A stretch of DNA of 64,000 nucleotides from positions 22,509-86,508 of the forward strand of contig VBFI01000044.1 of the NCBI GenBank assembly GCA_005889275.1, written 5' to 3'. This DNA is from Chloroflexota bacterium. Lineage in GTDB: Bacteria > Chloroflexota > Limnocylindria > P2-11E. Below, in pieces: positions 3,312-63,384 of the stretch; position 1 is the first letter of the stretch; each line of letters starts with the position of its first letter. The notes beneath the pieces were generated by a model. That model did no database searches and was not told the origin of the DNA. It saw nothing but the letters and a program-made list of their open reading frames with translations. A program made the translations under genes and the position numbers.

Positions 3312-4573
3312 GAATCCCCTCCTGCGTCCGCCGCCTGGGTGATCGCGCGTCGCGGCGCCACGGCGGCGAAGTCTCGCAGACGCCGCCCGCGGGCGGCGAC
3401 GCCCGCGATCACGCCACCGATCACGAGCGCCCCGACGGTCGCCGCTCCCGGTGCGCCGACCAGGGCGGTGGCGACGCCGGTCTCGAGCTGCGAAGCGTTC
3501 GTCAGCCCGCGCGCGACGATGAGGATGAACGACATCACCCGCCCGCGATACGCGTCTTCCGCGGCGAGCTGCGCGATCGCGCTGCGCATGGTCCCCCAGG
3601 TCGCGTCGGCGAAGCCGACGACCGCGAGGATCGCCATCGAGAGCGGGAAGGAGCGCGACCACGCGAAGCCCAGGAGCGCGAGGGCGTAGAGCGCCCCGGA
3701 CCCGAGCATGAACACGCCCTTGCGCCGCACGTCTCCGATGACGACGAGCAGCGCCATGCCCACGATCGCTCCGAACGCGATGCTCGAGAGCAGGAGGCCG
3801 AGGCCTTCGGCGCCCGCGCTCAGCACGTCGCGGGCGAAGATCGTCATGAGCGCCTGGTTGTGCCCGAAGACGGAGAGCGTCGCCTCGATCGCGAGTACCA
3901 GCGGGAGGATCCTGCTCGCCTGAACGTAACGCAGCCCGCCGACGAGCTCGCCGCGGAGCGATCCCCGGGCGCGCGCGGTCAGCGCGGGGACGCGCATCGC
4001 CATGAGTCCACCGATGATCGCGAAGTAGCTCGCGGCGTTCACGAAGAACGGCCACGCGACGCCCGCGCGCGCGATGAGCATTCCGGCGATCGCGGGGCCG
4101 ACGAGGTTCGAGGTCTGGAAGAGCATCGAGTTGAGCGTGATCGCGTTCTGGAGCTGGCCGCGCGGGAGGAGCGTGGGGAAAAGCGACTGCCGCGCGGGAG
4201 CATCGAATGCCGCGATCGTGGCGTTCAGGAAGCTGATGACGTAGATGTGCCAGAACACCACGTGCCCGCTGAGGACGAGCGCACCGAGGACGAGTGACGT
4301 CACGACCGAGGAGCTCTGGGTGATCAGGAGCAAGCGGCGGCGCTCGACCCGGTCGGCCACGGTCCCGCCGAGGAGCGCGAACGCGAAGATCGGTAGCGCC
4401 CGGAAGACGCCGCCGAGACCGAGCAGCAGCGGCGAGTCGGTGAGCTGATAGAGCAGCCAGCTCGTCGCGGTCAGCTCGATCCACGTACCGGACATCGAGA
4501 CGAGCTGCCCCGACCAGTAGAGCGCGTAGTTACGATGAGCGAGCGGTGCCAGCCCTGGCAGGAGGCGCGGCAC
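3308..4573 (-). CDS. MFS transporter (EntS/DHA3-like)
   Basis: 421 aa with about 12 TM helices. It carries the motif FRALPIFAFALLGGTVADRVERRRLL. The GTG start at 4573 overlaps the DUF421 stop (TAGTG). Confidence 0.85.
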   Translation of the reverse strand: MPRLLPGLAPLAHRNYALYWSGQLVSMSGTWIELTATSWLLYQLTDSPLLLGLGGVFRALPIFAFALLGGTVADRVERRRLLLITQSSSVVTSLVLGALVLSGHVVFWHIYVISFLNATIAAFDAPARQSLFPTLLPRGQLQNAITLNSMLFQTSNLVGPAIAGMLIARAGVAWPFFVNAASYFAIIGGLMAMRVPALTARARGSLRGELVGGLRYVQASRILPLVLAIEATLSVFGHNQALMTIFARDVLSAGAEGLGLLLSSIAFGAIVGMALLVVIGDVRRKGVFMLGSGALYALALLGFAWSRSFPLSMAILAVVGFADATWGTMRSAIAQLAAEDAYRGRVMSFILIVARGLTNASQLETGVATALVGAPGAATVGALVIGGVIAGVAARGRRLRDFAAVAPRRAITQAADAGGDS

Positions 4574-50691: not shown

Positions 50692-52025
50692 GGGCCCCCG
50701 CGTCCGCGGTACGGGTTCGTACCGCGTGTCGTGCTCTGAGCCTGCGTCCGCGTCACCGTGAAGCCGTTCCCATCGCTCGAGAGGCTCGAAGGCTGCGCAA
50801 GCACCTCGCCCCGGCCATTGATCATGGACACCGGCTTCGCCCCGAGCTGCGCGAGGTTCATCGTCTTGCCGTCGCGGACCGCGCTCGCCTTCGAGACCGC
50901 CAGGGTCCCGAAATTGTCGAGCGGCACGATCCCGCGACCCGCGCTCGGCGCCTCCTGTACCCACTCGGCCGAGGAGAGCGACGACGCGTACTGCACGGTC
51001 TGGTCGTAGGTCTCGCCGGTCGTGTTGTTCTTCAGCGCGATCGCCCAGTCGTTGCCCGATTTCGCGGTGATCGAGACGGTGACCGAGTCACCGGCGCTTA
51101 CCGACAACGCGACCGTGCGCGACGTCTGCGGGAGCATTTCGATCCAGGCCTCGTAACGCACGCCGCCATTCGTGGTGACCGTCGCCTGCGTGCCGGCCTG
51201 GATGAGGTCGCGGCTGCTCACCCCGCCGATGCCGACCCAGGTCGCGTCCGCGCCCGCCGACGCAGATGAGACTTGCGGGACGGTCCAGGTGCCGGTGACC
51301 GACGTGAACGTGCCCCCCGACGCCGCGTACCCCGACCAGTTGCTCGAGCTGCTCGACGAGGACGCCGGATTGCCGGGGACGACGCCGGGCGTGCCGGTCC
51401 CGGTCGACGGGCTGATGGTCTGCGCGTCCGGCTGCACGTCGCTCTGGATCTTCCAGATCCCGTTCTGCTGTACCAGCGTGTAGTTGTTCCGGTCGGTCCG
51501 CTCGTCGACCGATCCGTCGTCGTAGGTCGAGCGCCAGGTCTCGAAGGTCGTCGCCTGTGCGGTGGCGCCGCTTACGGTCACGGCACCGAAGTCGAGCTTG
51601 GTCAGCTCTATCGCGGTGACGCCGCTGGTCGCGAGATCGCTGTCGATCTGCAAGAGCTCCTGGTAGTACGAATCGGTCGCGGTCGCCCGCATGAGGGAGA
51701 CGTCGTGCTGGGCGAACGCCTTCGCCTGCGCGTCGTTGGCCTGCTGGATGACGTCCTTGACCGCGGCGACCGCCGCCGGGTCGTTCGCGCTCGCGCTGGA
51801 CGCCACGCCGCTCGGGGCTCGAGCCACCGCGTCGCGCACACCCGAAACGACGCTCGGGAGCTGGAGCCGGCCGGTGAACGTCGCGAGAAGGAAGGCGATG
51901 AGCCCGACGCTCAGGAGCCGCCAGACGTTCACCCCGGAGGCCGGTTGCTTCGGGGGCGGTGGCGGCGCGACCGGGGCGGTCGGAACGGTCGACTCGTTCG
52001 TCGCGTTTCCTTCGAGCATGTCCAT
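50688..52025 (-). CDS. membrane-anchored peptidase G1 (eqolisin/scytalidoglutamic peptidase) family protein with an NTF2-like middle domain
   Basis: The C-terminal 200 aa align to scytalidopepsin B: SNWSGYA, TWVGIGG, LIQAGT (catalytic Gln), YEAWIEMLP (catalytic Glu), GDSVTVSITA. There is an N-terminal TM helix. ATG at about 52025. Confidence 0.7.
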   Translation of the reverse strand: MDMLEGNATNESTVPTAPVAPPPPPKQPASGVNVWRLLSVGLIAFLLATFTGRLQLPSVVSGVRDAVARAPSGVASSASANDPAAVAAVKDVIQQANDAQAKAFAQHDVSLMRATATDSYYQELLQIDSDLATSGVTAIELTKLDFGAVTVSGATAQATTFETWRSTYDDGSVDERTDRNNYTLVQQNGIWKIQSDVQPDAQTISPSTGTGTPGVVPGNPASSSSSSSNWSGYAASGGTFTSVTGTWTVPQVSSASAGADATWVGIGGVSSRDLIQAGTQATVTTNGGVRYEAWIEMLPQTSRTVALSVSAGDSVTVSITAKSGNDWAIALKNNTTGETYDQTVQYASSLSSAEWVQEAPSAGRGIVPLDNFGTLAVSKASAVRDGKTMNLAQLGAKPVSMINGRGEVLAQPSSLSSDGNGFTVTRTQAQSTTRGTNPYRGRGGP

Positions 52026-56890: not shown

Positions 56891-58021
56891 CTACTCCAAC
56901 GCCCCTTTCCGCCCGCTCATTCCTTTGCGCACAGTGACCTTCGCGTACAGACCCATGTCGTCCATCCAGGCCCCGCCGTCGACGACACCACGGAGCGGCA
57001 GGACGTACGTGCCGGGCAGCTCGCTCTTCACCGCGAAGGTAAAGGTCGCGGTGGCGCCCGGCGGGACGATCTCCTCGGTCTGAACCGCGGGCCGGTCCGG
57101 GGTGGGCCAGCCGTCCGCCAGGAACGCGAGGTCCGCGCTGTTGTCGCGGACGCCGAGGCGCGCCTCCTGGTCGGTTCCCTTGCGCCACGCGGTCCCGCCG
57201 GTGTTCCGCAGCTCGATCGAGATGGAGGCGCTCTCGTTCTCCGCGACGCTCGGGAACGCCGACTCCGAGACGAAGCTCGCGTGCACGGTCGCGGCGGTCG
57301 GCGGGGCGCAGAGGCTTGTGAGGTACATGAAGTGCGGCCAATCCCAGGTCGGCCCGGGGTCACTGTGGTTGCTCCCGGGGACCTCGTTGTGTCCGACGAC
57401 GTGCGTGCGGTCGAGGGGAACGCCCTGCCGGGCGGAGATCGCGCAGGCGAGCGCGGCCGCCGCGTAGTACTGCTCGGCGGTGAAGAACGGATTGGTGATG
57501 TGATCGAGCTCGAGCTCGATCCCGATCGAGCGCTGGTTGAACCAGTAATTGCCGGCGTGCCAGGCCGTGTCGGCCTCCCCGACGACCTGGCCGATGTGGC
57601 CGTCGCCTCGGACGACGTAGTGCGCGCTGACGTTCGAGGCCGGGATGCTGAAGGCCTTCAGGGTGCGCGCGTAGCTGATGTCGGTGTAATGGAGGACGAT
57701 CCAGTTGACGGCCGCGCCACCGCGACCCTCGTCGTAGTTCGTCCGGGTCGGCAGCCACTCAGGCTGCGCGACGTATGGAAAGCGGGTCGCGATGAGCAAG
57801 CGCGGCGGTGGCGCGGCGCGTGGAGTCGGCTGCGGCGCGGGAGCGTCCGCGAGCGACGCGGGCGCCAGTTCGTCACGCTGCGGCACGACGGAGACGCGAG
57901 CGACGCACGACGACGTCACGAAGAGACCCGCCAAGAGCAAGATGAGAAGACGCCCCCGCACCACTTCGCGGAACGCGAGCGGCCATGAGACGTTGCGTCT
58001 GCTCGCTCGCACTGGGACCAT
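56891..58021 (-). CDS. N-acetylmuramoyl-L-alanine amidase (Amidase_2/PGRP) with C-terminal NBR1-like Ig domain, lipoprotein-like signal
   Basis: NWIVLHYTD...SAHYVV...HAGNYWFNQRSIGIELE...VVGHNEV...SDPGPTWDW, then SISIELRNTGGTAWRKG...GATATFTFAVKSELPGTYVLPLRGVVDGGAWMDDMGLYAKVTV. Confidence 0.8.
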   Translation of the reverse strand: MVPVRASRRNVSWPLAFREVVRGRLLILLLAGLFVTSSCVARVSVVPQRDELAPASLADAPAPQPTPRAAPPPRLLIATRFPYVAQPEWLPTRTNYDEGRGGAAVNWIVLHYTDISYARTLKAFSIPASNVSAHYVVRGDGHIGQVVGEADTAWHAGNYWFNQRSIGIELELDHITNPFFTAEQYYAAAALACAISARQGVPLDRTHVVGHNEVPGSNHSDPGPTWDWPHFMYLTSLCAPPTAATVHASFVSESAFPSVAENESASISIELRNTGGTAWRKGTDQEARLGVRDNSADLAFLADGWPTPDRPAVQTEEIVPPGATATFTFAVKSELPGTYVLPLRGVVDGGAWMDDMGLYAKVTVRKGMSGRKGALE

Positions 58022-58063: not shown

Positions 58064-58510
58064 CTACGTCCGCCCGCTCTGACTCCCGCGATGGTGCGGG
58101 CCCGGACCGAGGCCGAGCGCACCGTGCGTCACTCCGATGCAGCGTCGCGAGATCACCGTCAGGCCGGCCTCGGTGGCGACACGGATCGCTTCATCGGTCT
58201 CGGTCCCCGGCTGAAACCAGAGGATCCGAGCGCCGGCGGCGATGGCCTCCCTCGCCACCGCCAGAGCTTCGCCCGGAGGGCGGAAGACGTCGACGATGTC
58301 GATCGGAACGTCGATGTCCGCGAGGGACGACCGCACCGGCTCGCCAAAGAGCTCGCCGCCCTTCGGGCTCACCGGGATCACCCGGTAGCCCTGCGACCGC
58401 AGGTACGCGGGGATCGCGTGCGCGGCGCGGTCCTCCTTGGCCGATGCCCCGACGACCGCGATCGTCTTCGCCTCGTGATAGATCCGCCGGACGTCTTCGA
58501 GCGACATCAT
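58064..58510 (-). CDS. CoA-binding-domain protein (YccU/YneT-like)
   Basis: IYHEAKTIAVVGASAKEDRAAHAIPAYLRSQGYRVIPVSP matches the CoA_binding_2 Rossmann motif. Confidence 0.75.
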   Translation of the reverse strand: MMSLEDVRRIYHEAKTIAVVGASAKEDRAAHAIPAYLRSQGYRVIPVSPKGGELFGEPVRSSLADIDVPIDIVDVFRPPGEALAVAREAIAAGARILWFQPGTETDEAIRVATEAGLTVISRRCIGVTHGALGLGPGPHHRGSQSGRT

Positions 58511-58554
58511 CGTGTCCCAAACAACGCCAGGCGCTCGCCGATTCCGCGATCCGG

Positions 58555-59433
58555 TCAAGCCGCTCGGCGAAGCCGCGGGTCCAGCTCATCGCGCAGGCCG
58601 TCGCCAAGCACGTTGAACGAGCCGACGGCGAACAGGATCGCGAGGCCCGGGAAGAGCGAGAGCCAGGGCTGGGTGCTGATGAAGTTCCGGCCCTCGCTGA
58701 TCATGACGCCCCACTCGGGTGTCGGCGGCTGCGCCCCGAACCCGATGAAGCTGAGCCCTGCCGCGGCGATGATCGCCGCGCCCATGTCGAAGCTCGCCTG
58801 GATGAGGAGTGGCGCGACGGCATTCGGAAGCAGGTGGCGCGCCAGGATCCTCACCGGATGGACCCCGATGGCCCGCGCGGCCTCGACGAACTCGCGCCGG
58901 CGGAGCGAGAGGATCTGGCCGCGCGCGAGGCGCGCGTAGACCGCCCAGGTGACCGCGGCGATCGCGATGATCGCGTTCGTCAGGCTGGGGCCGAGCGCGC
59001 CGGCGATGGCCATCGCGAGGATGAGCGGTGGAAACGCGAGGAAGACCTCGGTGAGCCGCATGAGCGACTCGTCGACGAGACCGGCCACGTAGCCGGCGAC
59101 GAGCCCGATGCAGGTGCCGAAGATGCCGGCCGACGCGACGACGACCACCCCGATGAAGAGCGAGATGCGCGCCCCGTACAGCAGTCGGCTCGCGATGTCC
59201 CGCCCGAGCTGGTCCGTGCCCAACACGTGGGCCGGCGACGGCGGCTCGAGCCGCGACGCGAGCGCCTGTGTGAGAGGGTCATACGGTGCGAGGAGCGGAG
59301 CGAAAACGGCGCAGAAGGCGAACCCGGCGATGAGCCCGATTGCGAGGACGTTGAGCGGGTTGCGGAGGATCGACGACCGCGCGCCCATGCGCGAGCCGCG
59401 GAGTCGGGTCGATGCCACGAGCGCCTCAGCCAT
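58555..59433 (-). CDS. dppC: ABC transporter permease (DppC/OppC-like)
   Basis: TM1 is present (LNVLAIGLIAGFAFCAVFAPLLAPYDPL). HVLGTDQLGRDIASRLLYGARISL...EAARAIGVHPVR. Start at ATG 59433 or the tracked 59472. Confidence 0.8.
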   Translation of the reverse strand: MAEALVASTRLRGSRMGARSSILRNPLNVLAIGLIAGFAFCAVFAPLLAPYDPLTQALASRLEPPSPAHVLGTDQLGRDIASRLLYGARISLFIGVVVVASAGIFGTCIGLVAGYVAGLVDESLMRLTEVFLAFPPLILAMAIAGALGPSLTNAIIAIAAVTWAVYARLARGQILSLRRREFVEAARAIGVHPVRILARHLLPNAVAPLLIQASFDMGAAIIAAAGLSFIGFGAQPPTPEWGVMISEGRNFISTQPWLSLFPGLAILFAVGSFNVLGDGLRDELDPRLRRAA

Positions 59434-60296
59434 GCTGGATCCGCGGGTCGAGCCAGTAATAGGCGATGTCAACCGCGAGGTTCGCGACGGGATAGACGAT
59501 CGCCGCGAGCAAGGTCACCCCGAGCACTGCGGGGAAGTCGAGGCTCACCGCGGAGGCGGTCGCGTAACGCCCGAGGCCCGGCCAGCTGAAGATCGTTTCG
59601 GTGAGCACCGCGCCTGAGAGCAGGCTGCCGAACGTCAGCCCGATGATCGTCACCGTCGGAATGAGCGCGTTCCGCAGTCCATGGCGAAAGATGACGAGTC
59701 GCTCGGCGAGCCCCTTGGCCCGAGCGGTCCGCATGTAGTCCTGCGAGAGGACCGGTGCGTGTTGGCGGCGGCGGGACGAACGTGTCGAGGCGGCCGCCGC
59801 CGGGGAACCATCCGAGCTGGTAGTAGAAGAGGCCGATCACGATCAGCCCAAGCCAGAAAACCGGTAACGAGCCGCCTGCGAGCGAGAGCAGGCGCACGAC
59901 GTAGTCCGGGACCCGGCCGCGCGAGACCGCGGACCACACGCCGGCGGGGACCCCGAGGACGATCGAGATGAGCAGCGCCGCGAACGAGAGCTCGAGCGTC
60001 GCCGGGAACGAGTCCGCGAGGTCGTCCGCGACCGAGCGTCGCGTGCGGATGCTCTTCCCGAGATCGCCGTGGAGGATGCCGGTCGCGTAGATGAGGTACT
60101 GCTCGGGCAGCGGTCGGTCGAGGTGATACTCGGTGCGGAACTGCGCGATCTGCGCATCGGTCGCGTGATCGCCGAGCGCCGCGGCCACCGGATCGGCGGG
60201 TATGACGTGCGAGATCGCGAACGTGATGACCGAAACTCCGATCATCACGGCCGCGATCCCGACGACACGTTTGAGTAGAAAGCCGAGAAACCGCAT
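59426..60296 (-). pseudogene. dppB: dppB/oppB-like ABC permease gene disrupted by an internal deletion and frameshift
   Basis: The N-terminal 175 aa are in one frame (MRFLGFLLKRVVG...LGWFPGGGRLDTF) and then become junk. The C-terminal 100 aa are in another frame (LSQDYMRTARAKGL...LRNALIPTVT...YYWLDPRIQHG, tracked ORF 59426..59734). Only about 15 residues separate GWFP from QDY, against about 50 in intact DppB. Confidence 0.6.
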
Positions 60297-60311
60297 GGCG
60301 CCGCCTAGCGC

Positions 60312-61925
60312 CTATTTGCTTATCGCTGCGAAATCCGTCCAGTCCATCGGGCTCCACGCGAACCCCTTCACGTTGGACCGCAGACCGAAGGGTTCGGTCG
60401 GCTGGTACAGCACGGCGTAGGGCCCGTTGTGGAGCACGTAATCGGTGATGTCCTTGTACGCCGCGGAGCGCTTTGCCGTGTCGGTGATGAGAGCGGCGTC
60501 ACGGCCTTTGGCCGCGATGGTCTTGTCGTCCCAACCGTTCCGGAAAGCGATCGACTTCGCGGCGTAGTCGGTGAACGGACCGACGTTCGCGTCGGGGTCC
60601 GGGAAGTCCGGCCCCCACAGGATCATGACGAGCTGCCCCTTCTGCGCGCGGTACGTACCGAGCAGTTCGGCCTGCGTCGTCTGCTTGATGTTCACGGTCA
60701 CGCCGATGTTCTTCCAGTCCGATTGCAGCTTCGCCGCGAGGTCCGCCCAGGCGACGCCGCCTGGCGCCGGCCCCGTCGGCACGAGAAGCTCGAGCGTGAC
60801 GGCGGTCTGTCCGGCCTGCTGCAGGAGCGACTTGGCCTTGTTCACGTCGGCCTGGAATGGCGTCGACTCGTTGTAGCCCGCCAGACCCGCCGGCACGATG
60901 TCCTGCACCTTCTTCGCGCCGCCCTTGAACAGATCTTTCACGATGCCGTCGTAGTCGATCGCGGTGCGGAGTGCCTCGCGCACATTGACGTTGTCGAGCG
61001 GCTTCACGGTCACGTTCATGCCGACGTAGACGAGCTGCAGGCTGTTCCCGGTGGTGGTCACGACGCCCGGCTTGCCCTGGAGCGCCGCGATCTGCTGCGC
61101 GCCGAGGTTCCGGGCGATGTCGGCGTCGCCCTTCTCCAGCGCGAACTGCTGGTTCGTCGATTCGGGCACGTGCTTCACCAGCACGCCGCCGAGCGCCGGC
61201 TTTGGACTGCCGCCGTACTGCGGGTTGGCCTTCAGCTGGACCTCAGAGTTCTTCGTCCAATGATCGATCACGAACGCGCCGCTTCCCGACGAGTGGTCGA
61301 GGAGGTACCCGGAGCCCGAGTCGCCGCCGGTCTCCCGGGCCTTCACGTCCTTGGAGTCGACGACGCTTCCGATGGTGAAGGTCAGGACCGCGAGGAAGCC
61401 CTGCGGACTCGCGGTCTTCGGCAAGCTGATCACGACGGTCGACGGATCGGTCGCCTTGATGCTCGAGTCCTTGAGCTGAGCGATGTCCGTGAACAGGAAC
61501 GCCGGCGACTTGTTGAGCTTGAGCACGCGCTGGAACGAGTACACGACGTCGTCGGCGGTTATCGCGTTGCCGCTCGCGAATTTCGCGCCCGAGCGCAGCT
61601 TGAACGTGACGTCCCACTGAGAGCCCGAATCCTTGATGTCCCAGCTCTGAGCGAGGGCGGGCTTGATGGTCGAGAGGTCGGCCCCTTCGAACTTCACCAA
61701 CGTCTCGTAGGCGTTGTGGGCGAGCAGCACGCCGGTGAACTCGTAGGCGACCGCCGGGTCGAATGAGATCAAGTCGCTCGTGTCGGCGTACCAGACCAGC
61801 GTGCTCGCGGCACCGCCGGCAGATGGCGACGGTTGAGTCGAGGCCCCGGGAGCGGCGGCTGGAGTACACGCGGCGGCGATCAGCAGCGCGATGAAGAGCA
61901 GGACCGAAGTGCGACCGAATGACAT
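60312..61925 (-). CDS. ABC-type substrate-binding lipoprotein, family 5 (DppA/OppA-like)
   Basis: Lipobox LLIAAACTP and an SBP_bac_5 fold. GGGGAGGGA Shine-Dalgarno 7 nt upstream of ATG 61925. Confidence 0.85.
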   Translation of the reverse strand: MSFGRTSVLLFIALLIAAACTPAAAPGASTQPSPSAGGAASTLVWYADTSDLISFDPAVAYEFTGVLLAHNAYETLVKFEGADLSTIKPALAQSWDIKDSGSQWDVTFKLRSGAKFASGNAITADDVVYSFQRVLKLNKSPAFLFTDIAQLKDSSIKATDPSTVVISLPKTASPQGFLAVLTFTIGSVVDSKDVKARETGGDSGSGYLLDHSSGSGAFVIDHWTKNSEVQLKANPQYGGSPKPALGGVLVKHVPESTNQQFALEKGDADIARNLGAQQIAALQGKPGVVTTTGNSLQLVYVGMNVTVKPLDNVNVREALRTAIDYDGIVKDLFKGGAKKVQDIVPAGLAGYNESTPFQADVNKAKSLLQQAGQTAVTLELLVPTGPAPGGVAWADLAAKLQSDWKNIGVTVNIKQTTQAELLGTYRAQKGQLVMILWGPDFPDPDANVGPFTDYAAKSIAFRNGWDDKTIAAKGRDAALITDTAKRSAAYKDITDYVLHNGPYAVLYQPTEPFGLRSNVKGFAWSPMDWTDFAAISK

Positions 61926-62000: not shown

Positions 62001-63080
62001 TCACGACCCGGAGGCGAAGACGAGGCCATCCTCGTGCGAGATCGCCAGTCGCCGCTCCTGGCCGTCGAGATAGCGCAAGGTGGCGAGGAGCGCAAGCTCG
62101 ACGAACACGTCGAGCGTGGCGACGAAACCCGACTCGAGGAACGAGAAGGGCTGAACGAGAAGGAGATCGACGAGGATCGCGAGCTCGAAGAGACGGTAGG
62201 CGCGGGAACGTGACCGCCGCAGCGCGACAAGACCTGCCACGACCATCCCGCCCGCAACCACGCCGGCGAGCACCTGGATCAGCGACGGCACCGTGCTCCC
62301 GGCGGTCGTCTCGTCGAATGCCGCTCGCGCCTCCGCGTTCCCGATGAGCACCCCCACGACGAGCGCGAGGCCGGCGACGACGGTGAGGACGAAGCCGAGC
62401 CCATCGAGGATGAAGATCGCGGCGATGAGGCGCCCGAACCACCGACTCCCGGCGATCGCGGCGTATCGCCGGCTCGCCGCAAGCGAGAGTCTGCGAGCTC
62501 CCGAGGGCGCGCCGGTTGACGGAGCGGCTTCGGCGAACCGCGTACGCAGGGCGGCGACCATCGGCTCGGTCTGGTCCGCGCGGCGAAGGAGCTCCACGGC
62601 GCGGACGCGATCCGACTCGCCAAGCCTGCCGAGCACGAGCCTCTGGGAAAGCTCGATCGCGTTGACCAGGTTCTCCTCTGGCGAGAGCGCGCGGAACGTC
62701 CGCACCTGCCGCACCGTGAGGAAAAGCAGGACGAAGGTGACGTACACGAGCGCGGCCGTGGGCTTGAAGAAGTAGTCGTTGTCCGACGTCACGAACTTGC
62801 CCAGCTCGTCGATGAAGGCGCCGAAGCCCGCCCCTCCGACGAGCGCTGCGACAAGGCGAGTGGTCGAGGAGAGAAAGAGAAGGAGCAGGACGATCGCGAC
62901 CAGCATCCCGAGTCCGCCCCAGAGCACGTGCGCCACGTGGAGGCCGTTTCCACCCAGCTTCGGATAGCCGGTCGCCTCGAGATAGATGCGGATGAGGAGC
63001 ACGGCTGAGATCGCGGCGACGAGAAAGGCGTCCACGAGCTCGGCGTCCGCCGAGCGCAGGGGACCGCGGATGCTCCTCAC
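62001..63080 (-). CDS. hypothetical polytopic membrane protein
   Basis: GTG 63080 with GGAG 5 nt upstream. About 8 hydrophobic helices. No recognised family. The overlapping 382-aa ORF is Arg-rich junk. Confidence 0.5.
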   Translation of the reverse strand: MRSIRGPLRSADAELVDAFLVAAISAVLLIRIYLEATGYPKLGGNGLHVAHVLWGGLGMLVAIVLLLLFLSSTTRLVAALVGGAGFGAFIDELGKFVTSDNDYFFKPTAALVYVTFVLLFLTVRQVRTFRALSPEENLVNAIELSQRLVLGRLGESDRVRAVELLRRADQTEPMVAALRTRFAEAAPSTGAPSGARRLSLAASRRYAAIAGSRWFGRLIAAIFILDGLGFVLTVVAGLALVVGVLIGNAEARAAFDETTAGSTVPSLIQVLAGVVAGGMVVAGLVALRRSRSRAYRLFELAILVDLLLVQPFSFLESGFVATLDVFVELALLATLRYLDGQERRLAISHEDGLVFASGS

Positions 63081-63384
63081 GTCGCTCCAGTCTCGTGCCT
63101 CGCGTACCCGCCACGCCAAGCGACGGAGGACCGAGCAGGGAGACGGCCTAAAGGCTGTCCAGCAGGGCGTCGCCGGGCCCGGCCGACCGGACGAGACCGT
63201 TGAGCGGTTCGCGTACACTGAATGCGACACATCCGGGTTCGAGGAGCGTCATGGCCTGGGAGCCGCGAGTGCTCTCGGGCCTTTTTCTTCATTTCGCCGC
63301 GGGAGGAACCGATCAGGACTCTCATCACATCTGGGTTCACGACGAGCGCCGGCAGGTGCCGTACCGGCTGCAGGGCGGTGTGTC

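What the first reader, a model, noticed from the sequence alone, without database searches (positions are those of the whole stretch)
59426..61925. Decaying ABC peptide-type importer: dppB frameshifted and internally deleted, no ATPase genes
The SBP (60312..61925) and dppC (58555..59433) look intact. The dppB between them reads in two frames. The N-terminal 175 aa and the C-terminal 100 aa are recognisable, but about 35 residues are missing, including the region before the EAA-loop (HLILPA...RSSMLEV).

No dppD/dppF follow. A CoA-binding gene follows instead.
Basis: seen in the sequence. Interest (0 to 1): 0.5.

Follow-up and report, generated by a model that had tools for sequence, protein, structure and literature searches.

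The report
Private 143-bp deletion in dppB permease
A peptide-type ABC importer operon of a soil Chloroflexota bacterium has a 143-base, out-of-frame hole in one permease gene that appears in this assembly only, while the missing ATPase genes are the normal, conserved state in this lineage, so this is ordinary rather than an operon in decay.

Summary
On the minus strand lie an intact SBP (61925..60312), a dppB-like permease read in two frames (60296..59426), an intact dppC (59433..58555) and then a CoA-binding gene. No ABC ATPase is encoded anywhere in the 64 kb.

dppB lacks exactly 143 nt. That is residues 183-229 (47 aa, including transmembrane segment 4) plus 2 nt. A one-base fix cannot restore it.

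The "decaying importer" reading is not supported.
- Thirteen other contigs of the same >99%-identical soil population carry all or part of the 143 nt. None has the junction, and the broken products are absent from a 15-billion-protein collection.
- About 18 related Ca. Limnocylindria/Chloroflexota genomes keep the same SBP-dppB-dppC cassette with a full-length 337-aa DppB (dN/dS 0.08-0.15). None has an adjacent ATPase gene, so ATPases supplied in trans are the ancestral state.

The deletion sits at a strain-haplotype switch, in a gene where many independent assemblies break. It has only 1 nt of microhomology, and one breakpoint is directly next to a polymorphic site. I judge a contig-join artefact most likely (about 0.6) and a very recent strain-specific knockout the main rival (about 0.33). 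Only reads can decide. Interest is low.

The parts
60312..61925 (-). Substrate-binding protein, family 5 (DppA/OppA/NikA type), 537 aa. The N-terminus has a lipoprotein-like motif (LIAAAC). The gene is intact.
   Evidence: Pfam SBP_bac_5 at 1.4e-81. An identical protein is on 22 contigs. The nearest solved structures are peptide and dipeptide SBPs (8upi 1.7e-41, E. coli DppA 1dpp 5e-36). No NCBIfam equivalog cut-off is reached.
59753..60296 (-). dppB-like permease, N-terminal part: codons 1-181 plus the first base of codon 182. After the junction this frame runs on out of frame to a stop at 59469-59471, giving the 275-aa ORF 59469..60296.
   Evidence: Translation. Pfam BPD_transp_1_N at 6e-16 plus the first 48 positions of BPD_transp_1. 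This stretch is identical to the L001 allele, with 0 differences over 59753-60300.
59751..59753 (.). Deletion junction. 143 nt present in every other contig are absent here. The G at 59752 could come from either flank, so microhomology is 1 nt. The nearby GCCTCT and GTCCTCT are out of register and do not explain the join.
   Evidence: Alignments. The intact sequence reads ...ACACGCACCG[GCCTCTACG...CTCGA(T/C)]GTCCTCTCGCAGG. The right breakpoint lies 1 nt after a T/C polymorphic site. MEGAHIT contig L036 begins 5 nt before the left breakpoint.
59426..59752 (-). dppB-like permease, C-terminal part: 108 codons plus stop (VLSQDYMRTARAKGL...DPRIQHG*). It contains the EAA-type coupling loop and transmembrane segments 5-6, and is in a different frame from the N-terminal part.
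   Evidence: Translation. Pfam BPD_transp_1 positions 79-183/184 at 1.4e-24. The window has private synonymous SNPs at 59623, 59672, 59675, 59681 and 59699.
58555..59433 (-). dppC-like permease, 292 aa, intact. Its ATG overlaps the dppB stop (ATGGCTGA), which suggests translational coupling.
   Evidence: Pfam OppC_N plus a full BPD_transp_1. An identical product is on 5 contigs. NCBIfam best matches are NikC/Opp2C/DdpC-type permeases.
58860..59752 (.). Patch of raised divergence that abuts the junction on the dppC side only. It holds 10 differences from L001, against 0-3 per 2 kb elsewhere. Seven of the window's 8 private SNPs across the 13.5 kb compared lie in this patch.
   Evidence: At 3 of the 5 SNP sites nearest the junction, the window's allele matches the state in sister species. 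This is therefore a real divergent haplotype, not sequencing noise.
58064..58507 (-). CoA_binding_2 gene (147 aa), immediately downstream of dppC in this population. It is not part of the transporter and is not found at this position in other species.
   Evidence: Pfam at 1.8e-40. Gene calls in L001-L004. tblastn finds no match to it in L011-L034.
56891..58021 (-). Secreted or membrane-anchored N-acetylmuramoyl-L-alanine amidase (Amidase_2), 376 aa. It is a frequent downstream neighbour of the cassette in related genomes.
   Evidence: Pfam at 1.6e-30. It follows dppC in L014, L016, L017, L018, L021, L022, L023 and L025.

Best explanation
This locus is an ordinary Dpp/Opp/Nik-type (PepT family, TC 3.A.1.5) ABC importer cassette: lipoprotein SBP, DppB-like permease, DppC-like permease. 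It belongs to a soil Chloroflexota population (Ca. Limnocylindria, Angelo/CRIT18 grassland soils).

In this lineage the cassette never carries its own ATPase genes. It is nonetheless conserved under purifying selection, so it must be energised by nucleotide-binding subunits encoded elsewhere. That step is inferred.

In this one assembly dppB has a private 143-nt out-of-frame deletion. It removes residues 183-229, including transmembrane segment 4. Taken literally, the gene is dead: the N-terminal 181 residues run into a 93-residue out-of-frame tail, and the C-terminal 108 codons are left without a proper start.

The deletion is most probably not biological. It looks like two contigs abutted, or joined with a wrongly estimated gap, at a strain-variable site during assembly or scaffolding of a mixed population. 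It is not evidence that the importer is decaying.
For: Shown:
- The deletion is exactly 143 nt relative to L001-L007 and L009 and to L035-L038. L039 covers only the last 31 nt of the segment.
- L035-L039 all carry the window's exact DppC protein variant.
- The junction sequence and the adjacent private haplotype give 0 matches in JGI metagenome contigs.
- Neither broken ORF product is on record. The intact 337-aa product is on 10 contigs.
- The window is the L001 haplotype throughout 50.4-64 kb, except for an 890-nt patch that begins exactly at the junction.
- The right breakpoint is 1 nt after a T/C polymorphic site. Microhomology is 1 nt.
- dppB is a hot spot of assembly breaks. Contigs L007, L008, L010, L036, L037, L038 and L039 all end inside it. 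L035 is broken inside it. L005 (an N-gapped scaffold) has its own 32-nt deletion, and L002 has a 2-nt insertion.
- Variable-site density is 4.9% in the deleted segment and up to 14% just upstream, against 0-2% over most of the SBP gene.
- All five private SNPs next to the junction are synonymous.
- DppB is full length in every related genome that covers it, with dN/dS 0.08-0.15.
- No NBD gene lies next to dppC in any Limnocylindria/Chloroflexota locus, and none occurs in the 64-kb window.

Precedent for ATPases supplied in trans: P5PAB needs AfuC, and MsiK serves several systems (PMC8427247). FhuC is shared in S. aureus (PMC10147376).
Against: - No reads are available, so the artefact is inferred, not shown.
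- The window has no N runs in 64 kb, so nothing directly marks a scaffold join here.
- A pure de Bruijn graph assembler cannot jump 143 nt without reads that span the junction. If the contig comes from such an assembler without scaffolding, the deletion would have to exist in some reads.
- The cluster of real, private, synonymous SNPs next to the junction shows that a distinct strain exists. That strain could genuinely carry the deletion.
- The partner ATPases have not been located. The only data are this window and flanks of at most 10 kb elsewhere.
Confidence: 0.6

Rival explanations
1. The deletion is real and very recent, in one strain of the population. A minority lineage, marked by the private synonymous SNPs at 59623-59699, lost 143 nt of dppB. 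Possible routes are end-joining, or homology-facilitated illegitimate recombination when a roughly 0.9-kb tract was imported from a diverged strain. This knocked out the importer in that strain only, and SBP and dppC have not yet had time to decay.
For: - The sequence as given contains the deletion with no Ns.
- The adjoining 890-nt patch is a genuine distinct haplotype. All five nearest SNPs are synonymous, and three of them share alleles with sister species.
- A recombination tract with one end at the deletion is the pattern expected from one homologous and one illegitimate crossover.
- The population is visibly mosaic at this site. L038 switches from 99.4% to 83% identity at this point.
Against: - None of the 13 other contigs covering the site has the deletion. 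These include contigs from several samples and three assembly pipelines.
- The junction and the private patch are absent from JGI metagenome contigs.
- The broken products are absent from 15 billion proteins.
- There is only 1 nt of microhomology.
- The gene is strongly conserved across the clade, so a knockout should be selected against.
- The breakpoints fall where independent assemblies break.
Confidence: 0.33
2. One reading: the whole importer is decaying. On this view the ATPase genes were already lost, dppB is now broken, and SBP and dppC will follow.
For: dppB is disrupted, and no NBD gene lies in the window.
Against: - The ATPase-less three-gene cassette is shared by about 18 genomes, down to 53% SBP identity. 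Their DppB and DppC are full length, and dppB dN/dS is 0.08-0.15.
- The same population carries the intact allele on at least 10 contigs.
- SBP and dppC show no lesions.
- The private changes in the dppB remnant are all synonymous.
Confidence: 0.04
3. dppB is functional as it stands, either as a split permease or through a programmed frameshift. The two pieces would be made and work together.
For: Both pieces keep recognisable permease sequence.
Against: - The 47 missing residues include the near-invariant HLVLPALTLGYFSTAVIARMTRSSML block and the fourth hydrophobic segment. Without that segment the downstream coupling loop would face the wrong side of the membrane.
- Every orthologue is a single 337-aa protein.
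- The junction has no slippery-site context.
Confidence: 0.01

Closest known systems
E. coli DppABCDF dipeptide/haem ABC importer (PDB 8Z1V-8Z1Z; DppA 1DPP)
   Same: The intact population allele of DppB aligns end to end with E. coli DppB (residues 4-336 to 2-337, E 3.8e-81). The SBP matches DppA (5e-36). Gene order SBP-B-C is the same. An EAA-type loop (DYMRTARAKGL in DppB, FVEAARAIG in DppC) is present.
   Different: There are no dppD/dppF in cis, here or in any orthologous locus. The SBP reaches only 145 bits against the DppA equivalog cut-off of 1005, so the substrate is not established. In the window itself dppB lacks residues 183-229.
Nickel/metallophore PepT systems (NikABCDE; S. aureus Opp2/NikBCDE, Cnt)
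   Same: DppC scores best against NikC/Opp2C models. Opp2C scores 308.7 bits, just above its cut-off of 300, and DppB scores 301 bits against Opp2B.
   Different: The Opp2B cut-off (350) is not reached. The SBP is far below the NikA cut-offs. No nickel- or cobalt-related neighbours or riboswitch were found (Rfam 0 hits). In one relative (L026) a Peptidase_M19 dipeptidase follows dppC, which points to peptides.
ABC importers energised by a shared, separately encoded ATPase (Streptomyces MsiK, B. subtilis MsmX, S. aureus FhuC, Actinobacillus P5PAB using AfuC)
   Same: The operon encodes the SBP and permeases but no nucleotide-binding subunit, and is still maintained by selection. Function then requires an ATPase from another locus (PMC8427247; PMC10147376).
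   Different: The documented cases are CUT1 sugar, siderophore/haem and Afu-type systems with a single homodimeric ATPase. PepT-family systems normally use two dedicated ATPases (DppD/DppF) with an extra C-terminal domain. The partner here is unidentified, so sharing is inferred and not tested.

Membership tests
PepT-family (Opp/Dpp/Nik, TC 3.A.1.5) ABC importer | Family-5 extracytoplasmic substrate-binding protein | tested here: met
   SBP_bac_5 at 1.4e-81, covering profile positions 1-363/368. PDB matches are DppA/OppA/NikA-type proteins.
PepT-family (Opp/Dpp/Nik, TC 3.A.1.5) ABC importer | Two different six-helix permeases (DppB type with BPD_transp_1_N; DppC type with OppC_N), each with an EAA coupling loop | tested here: inconclusive
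   DppC meets this in the window. DppB meets it in the population allele (337 aa, six hydrophobic segments). In the window's own sequence DppB does not: 47 residues including segment 4 are missing and the frame is broken.
PepT-family (Opp/Dpp/Nik, TC 3.A.1.5) ABC importer | Two ATPase subunits (DppD/DppF type) encoded with the permeases | tested here: not met
   No Walker A plus LSGGQ ORF, and no tblastn match to Opp-type ATPases, in the 64-kb window, in L001-L010 or beside dppC in L011-L029. ATPases encoded elsewhere in the genome could not be searched.
E. coli-type DppA dipeptide specificity (NCBIfam NF043070 equivalog) | Score at or above the curated equivalog cut-off | tested here: not met
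   144.8 bits against a cut-off of 1005. The substrate should be left as 'peptide/nickel/opine family, unknown'.
Genuine pseudogene (decaying gene) | Reading frame disrupted relative to intact orthologues | tested here: met
   143-nt out-of-frame deletion relative to 12 population contigs that span the segment and 18 orthologues.
Genuine pseudogene (decaying gene) | Lesion reproducible in independent data (other assemblies, reads) | tested here: not met
   0 of 13 other contigs have it. There were 0 matches to the junction in JGI metagenome contigs, and the products are not in the protein collection. Reads cannot be examined with these tools.
Genuine pseudogene (decaying gene) | Signs of relaxed selection, or further lesions in the gene or operon | tested here: not met
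   The five private substitutions in the remnant are all synonymous. SBP and dppC are intact and identical to other contigs.
Shared-ATPase ABC importers (MsiK/MsmX/FhuC-like arrangement) | Permease operon without an NBD gene that is still maintained by selection | tested here: met
   The cassette is conserved in about 18 genomes. dN/dS of dppB is 0.08-0.15, and no adjacent NBD is present.
Shared-ATPase ABC importers (MsiK/MsmX/FhuC-like arrangement) | An identified ATPase encoded elsewhere that energises the system | not testable with these tools
No functional data exist.

The most novel reading that the evidence does not exclude
Throughout Ca. Limnocylindria and neighbouring Chloroflexota, a PepT-family importer is kept as an SBP-permease-permease cassette with no ATPases of its own. 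This would imply a shared, separately encoded DppD/F-type ATPase pair serving several peptide-type permeases, a PepT analogue of MsiK/MsmX. In many lineages the cassette lies beside a secreted Amidase_2, which would suit uptake of cell-wall-derived peptides. On this reading the window's deletion would be a real strain-level knockout, caught within a recombining soil population.
Probability: 0.25. Interest if true: 0.4.

Novelty: new member of a known kind. Interest (0 to 1): 0.15.

Why it matters
This matters mainly as a caution. A frameshifted or deleted gene in a single metagenome-assembled contig, together with "missing" ATPase genes, can look like operon decay. Here both signals disappear once population contigs and sister genomes are compared.

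If the deletion were real, it would be a routine strain-level loss of one nutrient importer.

The one modestly interesting by-product is that a whole class of soil and freshwater Chloroflexota keeps a peptide-type ABC cassette without its own ATPases. This suggests ATPase sharing in the PepT family, which is well documented for sugar and siderophore systems but little described for Opp/Dpp-type systems.

Tried and rejected
1. Single-base or homopolymer error. Rejected: 143 nt are missing, not 1-2.
2. Slippage between direct repeats. The nearby GCCTCT and GTCCTCT are out of register, and the actual junction shares only one G.
3. Independent occurrences of the deletion. I looked up the exact products of both broken ORFs. 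All were negative. These collections may also simply lack the window's source contig.
4. Contigs carrying the window's exact DppC variant, as the closest haplotype matches. All of them carry the 143-nt segment or part of it, but none shares the five private dppB SNPs. The exact haplotype was therefore not recovered elsewhere.
5. Hidden or degenerate ATPase genes. A motif scan and tblastn with Opp-type NBDs from L033/L034 found none. ATPases within 10 kb in L020 (LivG/F-like) and L028 (SsuB-like) are unrelated and on the far side of the SBP. The type of the one in L025 was not determined.
6. A conserved downstream gene that might replace an ATPase. The downstream genes vary between loci: CoA_binding_2, Amidase_2, peroxidase-like, Vgb_lyase-like, M19 dipeptidase.
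7. Riboswitch or other regulatory RNA that might hint at the substrate. Rfam gave 0 hits in the whole window, and the promoter/terminator scan gave nothing above chance.
8. A crude GC3 frame scan of the whole window for further frameshifts. It was uninformative and I did not pursue it.
9. Literature on Limnocylindria transporters. Nothing bears on this cassette.
Full report
**What is in the sequence**

On the minus strand of 56.9-61.9 kb lie five genes.
- A family-5 substrate-binding protein at 61925..60312 (537 aa, SBP_bac_5 1.4e-81).
- A DppB-like permease at 60296..59426.
- A DppC-like permease at 59433..58555 (292 aa, OppC_N plus a complete BPD_transp_1). Its ATG overlaps the dppB stop.
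- A CoA_binding_2 gene at 58507..58064.
- An Amidase_2 gene at 58021..56891.

dppB reads in two frames. From ATG 60296 the sequence is a good permease N-terminus up to ...PPPPTRTG (codon 182), then runs out of frame to a stop at 59469. A second frame gives VLSQDYMRTARAKGL...DPRIQHG* (108 codons) ending at 59426. Pfam sees BPD_transp_1_N plus profile positions 1-48 of BPD_transp_1 in the first piece, and positions 79-183 in the second.

No ABC ATPase is encoded anywhere in the 64 kb. I checked this by a Walker A/LSGGQ motif scan in six frames and by tblastn with two Opp-type ATPases taken from distant loci.

**Exact nature of the lesion**

An exact-sequence look-up of the SBP found the identical protein on 22 soil-metagenome contigs. 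They come from ENA "CRIT18-1_SAMN089028xx" scaffolds, MEGAHIT k141 contigs and three JGI soil metagenomes. These contigs are 99-99.9% identical to the window over 50.3-64 kb.

In eight of them that span dppB, the gene is a single 337-aa ORF or is otherwise continuous at this site. The window lacks exactly 143 nt that all eight possess:
...ACACGCACCG[GCCTCTACGTC ... GAGCATGCTCGA(T/C)]GTCCTCTCGCAGG...

The lost piece is 47 codons plus 2 nt, corresponding to residues L183-D229 (LYVVDSILAGDFEALRSSLVHLVLPALTLGYFSTAVIARMTRSSMLD). It includes the fourth of six hydrophobic segments (201-219).

The intact allele aligns end to end with E. coli DppB of the solved DppABCDF complex (8Z1V, E 3.8e-81). The lost block corresponds to E. 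coli ...HMILPAIVLGTIPLAVIVRMTRSSMLE.

A one-base correction cannot restore the gene, and even an in-frame version would lack a membrane helix. The two flanks share a single G. The nearby GCCTCT and GTCCTCT are out of register and do not explain the join.

**Is the lesion seen anywhere else? No.**

- Neither the 275-aa nor the 102-aa broken ORF product is on record in the gene-position index or in the 15-billion-protein collection.
- The intact 337-aa product is on 10 contigs.
- The junction 32-mer has no match in JGI metagenome contigs.
- The window's DppC differs from most contigs by two residues, so I looked up that exact variant to find the closest haplotypes. Five contigs carry it. Four span the site, and all four contain the 143 nt. 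The fifth covers only the last 31 nt of the segment.

In total 13 independent contigs from several samples and three assembly styles carry all or part of the segment, and none carries the deletion.

**Context of the breakpoints**

Across 13.5 kb the window is essentially the L001 haplotype, with 0-3 differences per 2 kb. The exception is an 890-nt patch (58860-59752) that begins exactly at the junction and extends towards dppC. It has 10 differences from L001 and holds 7 of the window's 8 private SNPs.

The five SNPs nearest the junction (59623, 59672, 59675, 59681, 59699) are all synonymous in the dppB frame. At three of them the window's allele matches the state in sister species. They therefore mark a real, selected allele of another strain, not sequencing noise. 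A 33-mer covering four of them has no match in JGI contigs.

The site is also a haplotype boundary in the population and a place where assemblies break.
- L038 drops from 99.4% to 83% identity there.
- MEGAHIT contig L036 begins 5 nt before the left breakpoint.
- The right breakpoint is 1 nt after a T/C polymorphic site.
- Contigs L007, L008, L010, L036, L037, L038 and L039 all end inside dppB.
- L035 is broken inside it.
- The N-gapped scaffold L005 has its own 32-nt deletion near the 3' end of dppB, and L002 has a 2-nt insertion near the start.
- Variable sites reach 4.9% in the deleted segment and 12-14% just upstream, against 0-2% over most of the SBP gene.

A haplotype switch at the junction, almost no microhomology, a breakpoint next to a polymorphic site and a gene that fragments many assemblies fit a particular scenario. 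Two contigs would have been abutted, or joined with a wrongly estimated gap, after a short multi-strain bubble was dropped.

From memory, and not tested here, some scaffolders trim or abut contigs when the estimated gap is zero or negative. I treat that as a lead only.

The alternative is a real deletion in a rare strain, for instance from an illegitimate join at one end of an imported recombination tract. The window contains no Ns, and a pure de Bruijn graph assembler could not create the junction without supporting reads, so this alternative stays open.

My estimate is about 0.6 for an artefact and about 0.33 for a real, very recent strain-level knockout.

**Is the importer decaying? No.**

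A genome-contig scan with the SBP returned 24 loci. About 20 are from Chloroflexota MAGs, mostly Ca. Limnocylindria. They include the Diamond et al. "CF_" genomes from the same grassland soils and the SMAG soil MAGs. SBP identity ranges from 53 to 97%.

- Wherever the contig covers it (18 loci), DppB is one uninterrupted 335-337-residue match at 69-94% identity, followed by DppC.
- dN/dS of dppB between the population allele and 11 orthologues is 0.08-0.15. The block deleted in the window is nearly invariant across them.
- None of these loci has an ABC ATPase beside dppC.
- The only nucleotide-binding genes within 10 kb lie upstream of the SBP. L020 has a LivG/F-like pair and L028 an SsuB-like gene. 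L025 has one about 8 kb upstream whose type was not determined.
- The gene after dppC varies: CoA_binding_2 then Amidase_2 in the window's population, Amidase_2 in eight loci, a peroxidase-like protein in L011 and L012, a Vgb_lyase-like protein in L015, and a Peptidase_M19 dipeptidase in L026.
- Only the very distant hits L033 (Lachnospira) and L034 (Desulfobacteraceae) have the classical adjacent ATPases.

The ATPase-less three-gene cassette is therefore the ancestral, selected state in this lineage, not the result of a recent loss.

**How it most likely works**

Shown: the cassette encodes a lipoprotein-type SBP and two permeases with EAA-type coupling loops (DYMRTARAKGL in DppB, FVEAARAIG in DppC). 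It is conserved under purifying selection without ATPase genes in cis.

Inferred: it is energised by Opp/Dpp-type ATPases encoded elsewhere. ATPases supplied in trans are documented for other ABC families. P5PAB needs AfuC, and MsiK serves several sugar systems (PMC8427247). FhuC is shared among S. aureus iron systems (PMC10147376).

The substrate is open.
- The SBP is nearest to peptide and dipeptide binders, but far below every NCBIfam equivalog cut-off.
- DppC just passes the Opp2C "nickel permease" cut-off, 308.7 against 300.
- The M19 dipeptidase neighbour in L026 and the frequent Amidase_2 neighbour favour peptides, possibly cell-wall-derived ones. This is speculative.

**Comparison with known systems, and novelty**

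The system is a PepT-family importer closest to E. coli DppABCDF in sequence. It resembles the MsiK/MsmX/FhuC arrangements in lacking its own ATPase. It is a new member of a known kind.

The pseudogene claim meets only one of three criteria. The frame is disrupted, but the lesion is not reproduced in independent data, and there is no sign of relaxed selection.

**Verdict**

The finding is ordinary: most likely an assembly defect, otherwise a routine strain-specific deletion, in a normal and conserved ATPase-less peptide-type importer cassette. Interest is 0.15. Reads from the source sample would settle the one open point.

Noticed in passing
L001 2806-5843 (just beyond the window's 64000 end; window 64000 corresponds to L001 7926): A second ABC importer set lies about 4 kb beyond the SBP side of this locus. 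It has a 449-aa protein with no Pfam hit on record, possibly an SBP, plus two BPD_transp_1 permeases (292 and 273 aa). It also has no ATPase gene. Window plus flank therefore give about 72 kb with two permease sets and no nucleotide-binding gene.
   Followed up: partly
L005 about 4078-4085 (window 59449-59472); L002 about 11671 (window 60256): Other assemblies of the same population carry their own private lesions in dppB. The N-gapped scaffold L005 has a 32-nt deletion near the 3' end. L002 has a 2-nt insertion at about codon 14, which made the gene caller pick a later start (320 aa). Both fit dppB being error-prone in assemblies of this mixed population.
   Followed up: partly
L038 1-259 against 397-1913 (window 59746-60005 against 58236-59752): Contig L038 is 99.4% identical to the window on the dppC side of the breakpoint and only 83% identical on the SBP side. 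This is a mosaic: either a recombinant haplotype or an assembly chimera. Its switch point coincides with the window's deletion site.
   Followed up: partly
L021 (DASPWX010000159.1) and L030 (JALYST010000205.1): L021 is labelled Candidatus Bathyarchaeia archaeon. It carries a Limnocylindria-like SBP-dppB-dppC-Amidase_2 locus with 73% SBP and 85% DppB identity. L030 is labelled Actinomycetota and carries only a 74%-identical SBP fragment. Both are probably mis-binned contigs.
   Followed up: no
window 56891-58021 (-) and L014, L016, L017, L018, L021, L022, L023, L025: A 376-aa Amidase_2 protein (N-acetylmuramoyl-L-alanine amidase) with an N-terminal hydrophobic anchor follows the cassette in many lineages. 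A second gene a few kb further on repeats its C-terminal roughly 120 residues at about 30% identity. The link to the transporter may hint at uptake of cell-wall peptides.
   Followed up: partly
window 62001-63230 (-): A 409-aa predicted multi-helix membrane protein with no Pfam match lies directly upstream of the SBP gene. It is conserved in the population (called as 359 aa). Among the other species it was found only in L022, at 62% identity.
   Followed up: no
window 51779-51787: A small, locally scrambled 6-nt in-frame length difference from L001 lies inside the Peptidase_A4 gene. It looks like natural variation. Apart from the dppB deletion it is the only other indel against L001 in the 13.5 kb compared.
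   Followed up: no
window 1-64000: There were no Rfam matches at gathering threshold anywhere in the 64 kb, so no RNA family reached threshold in this window.
   Followed up: no
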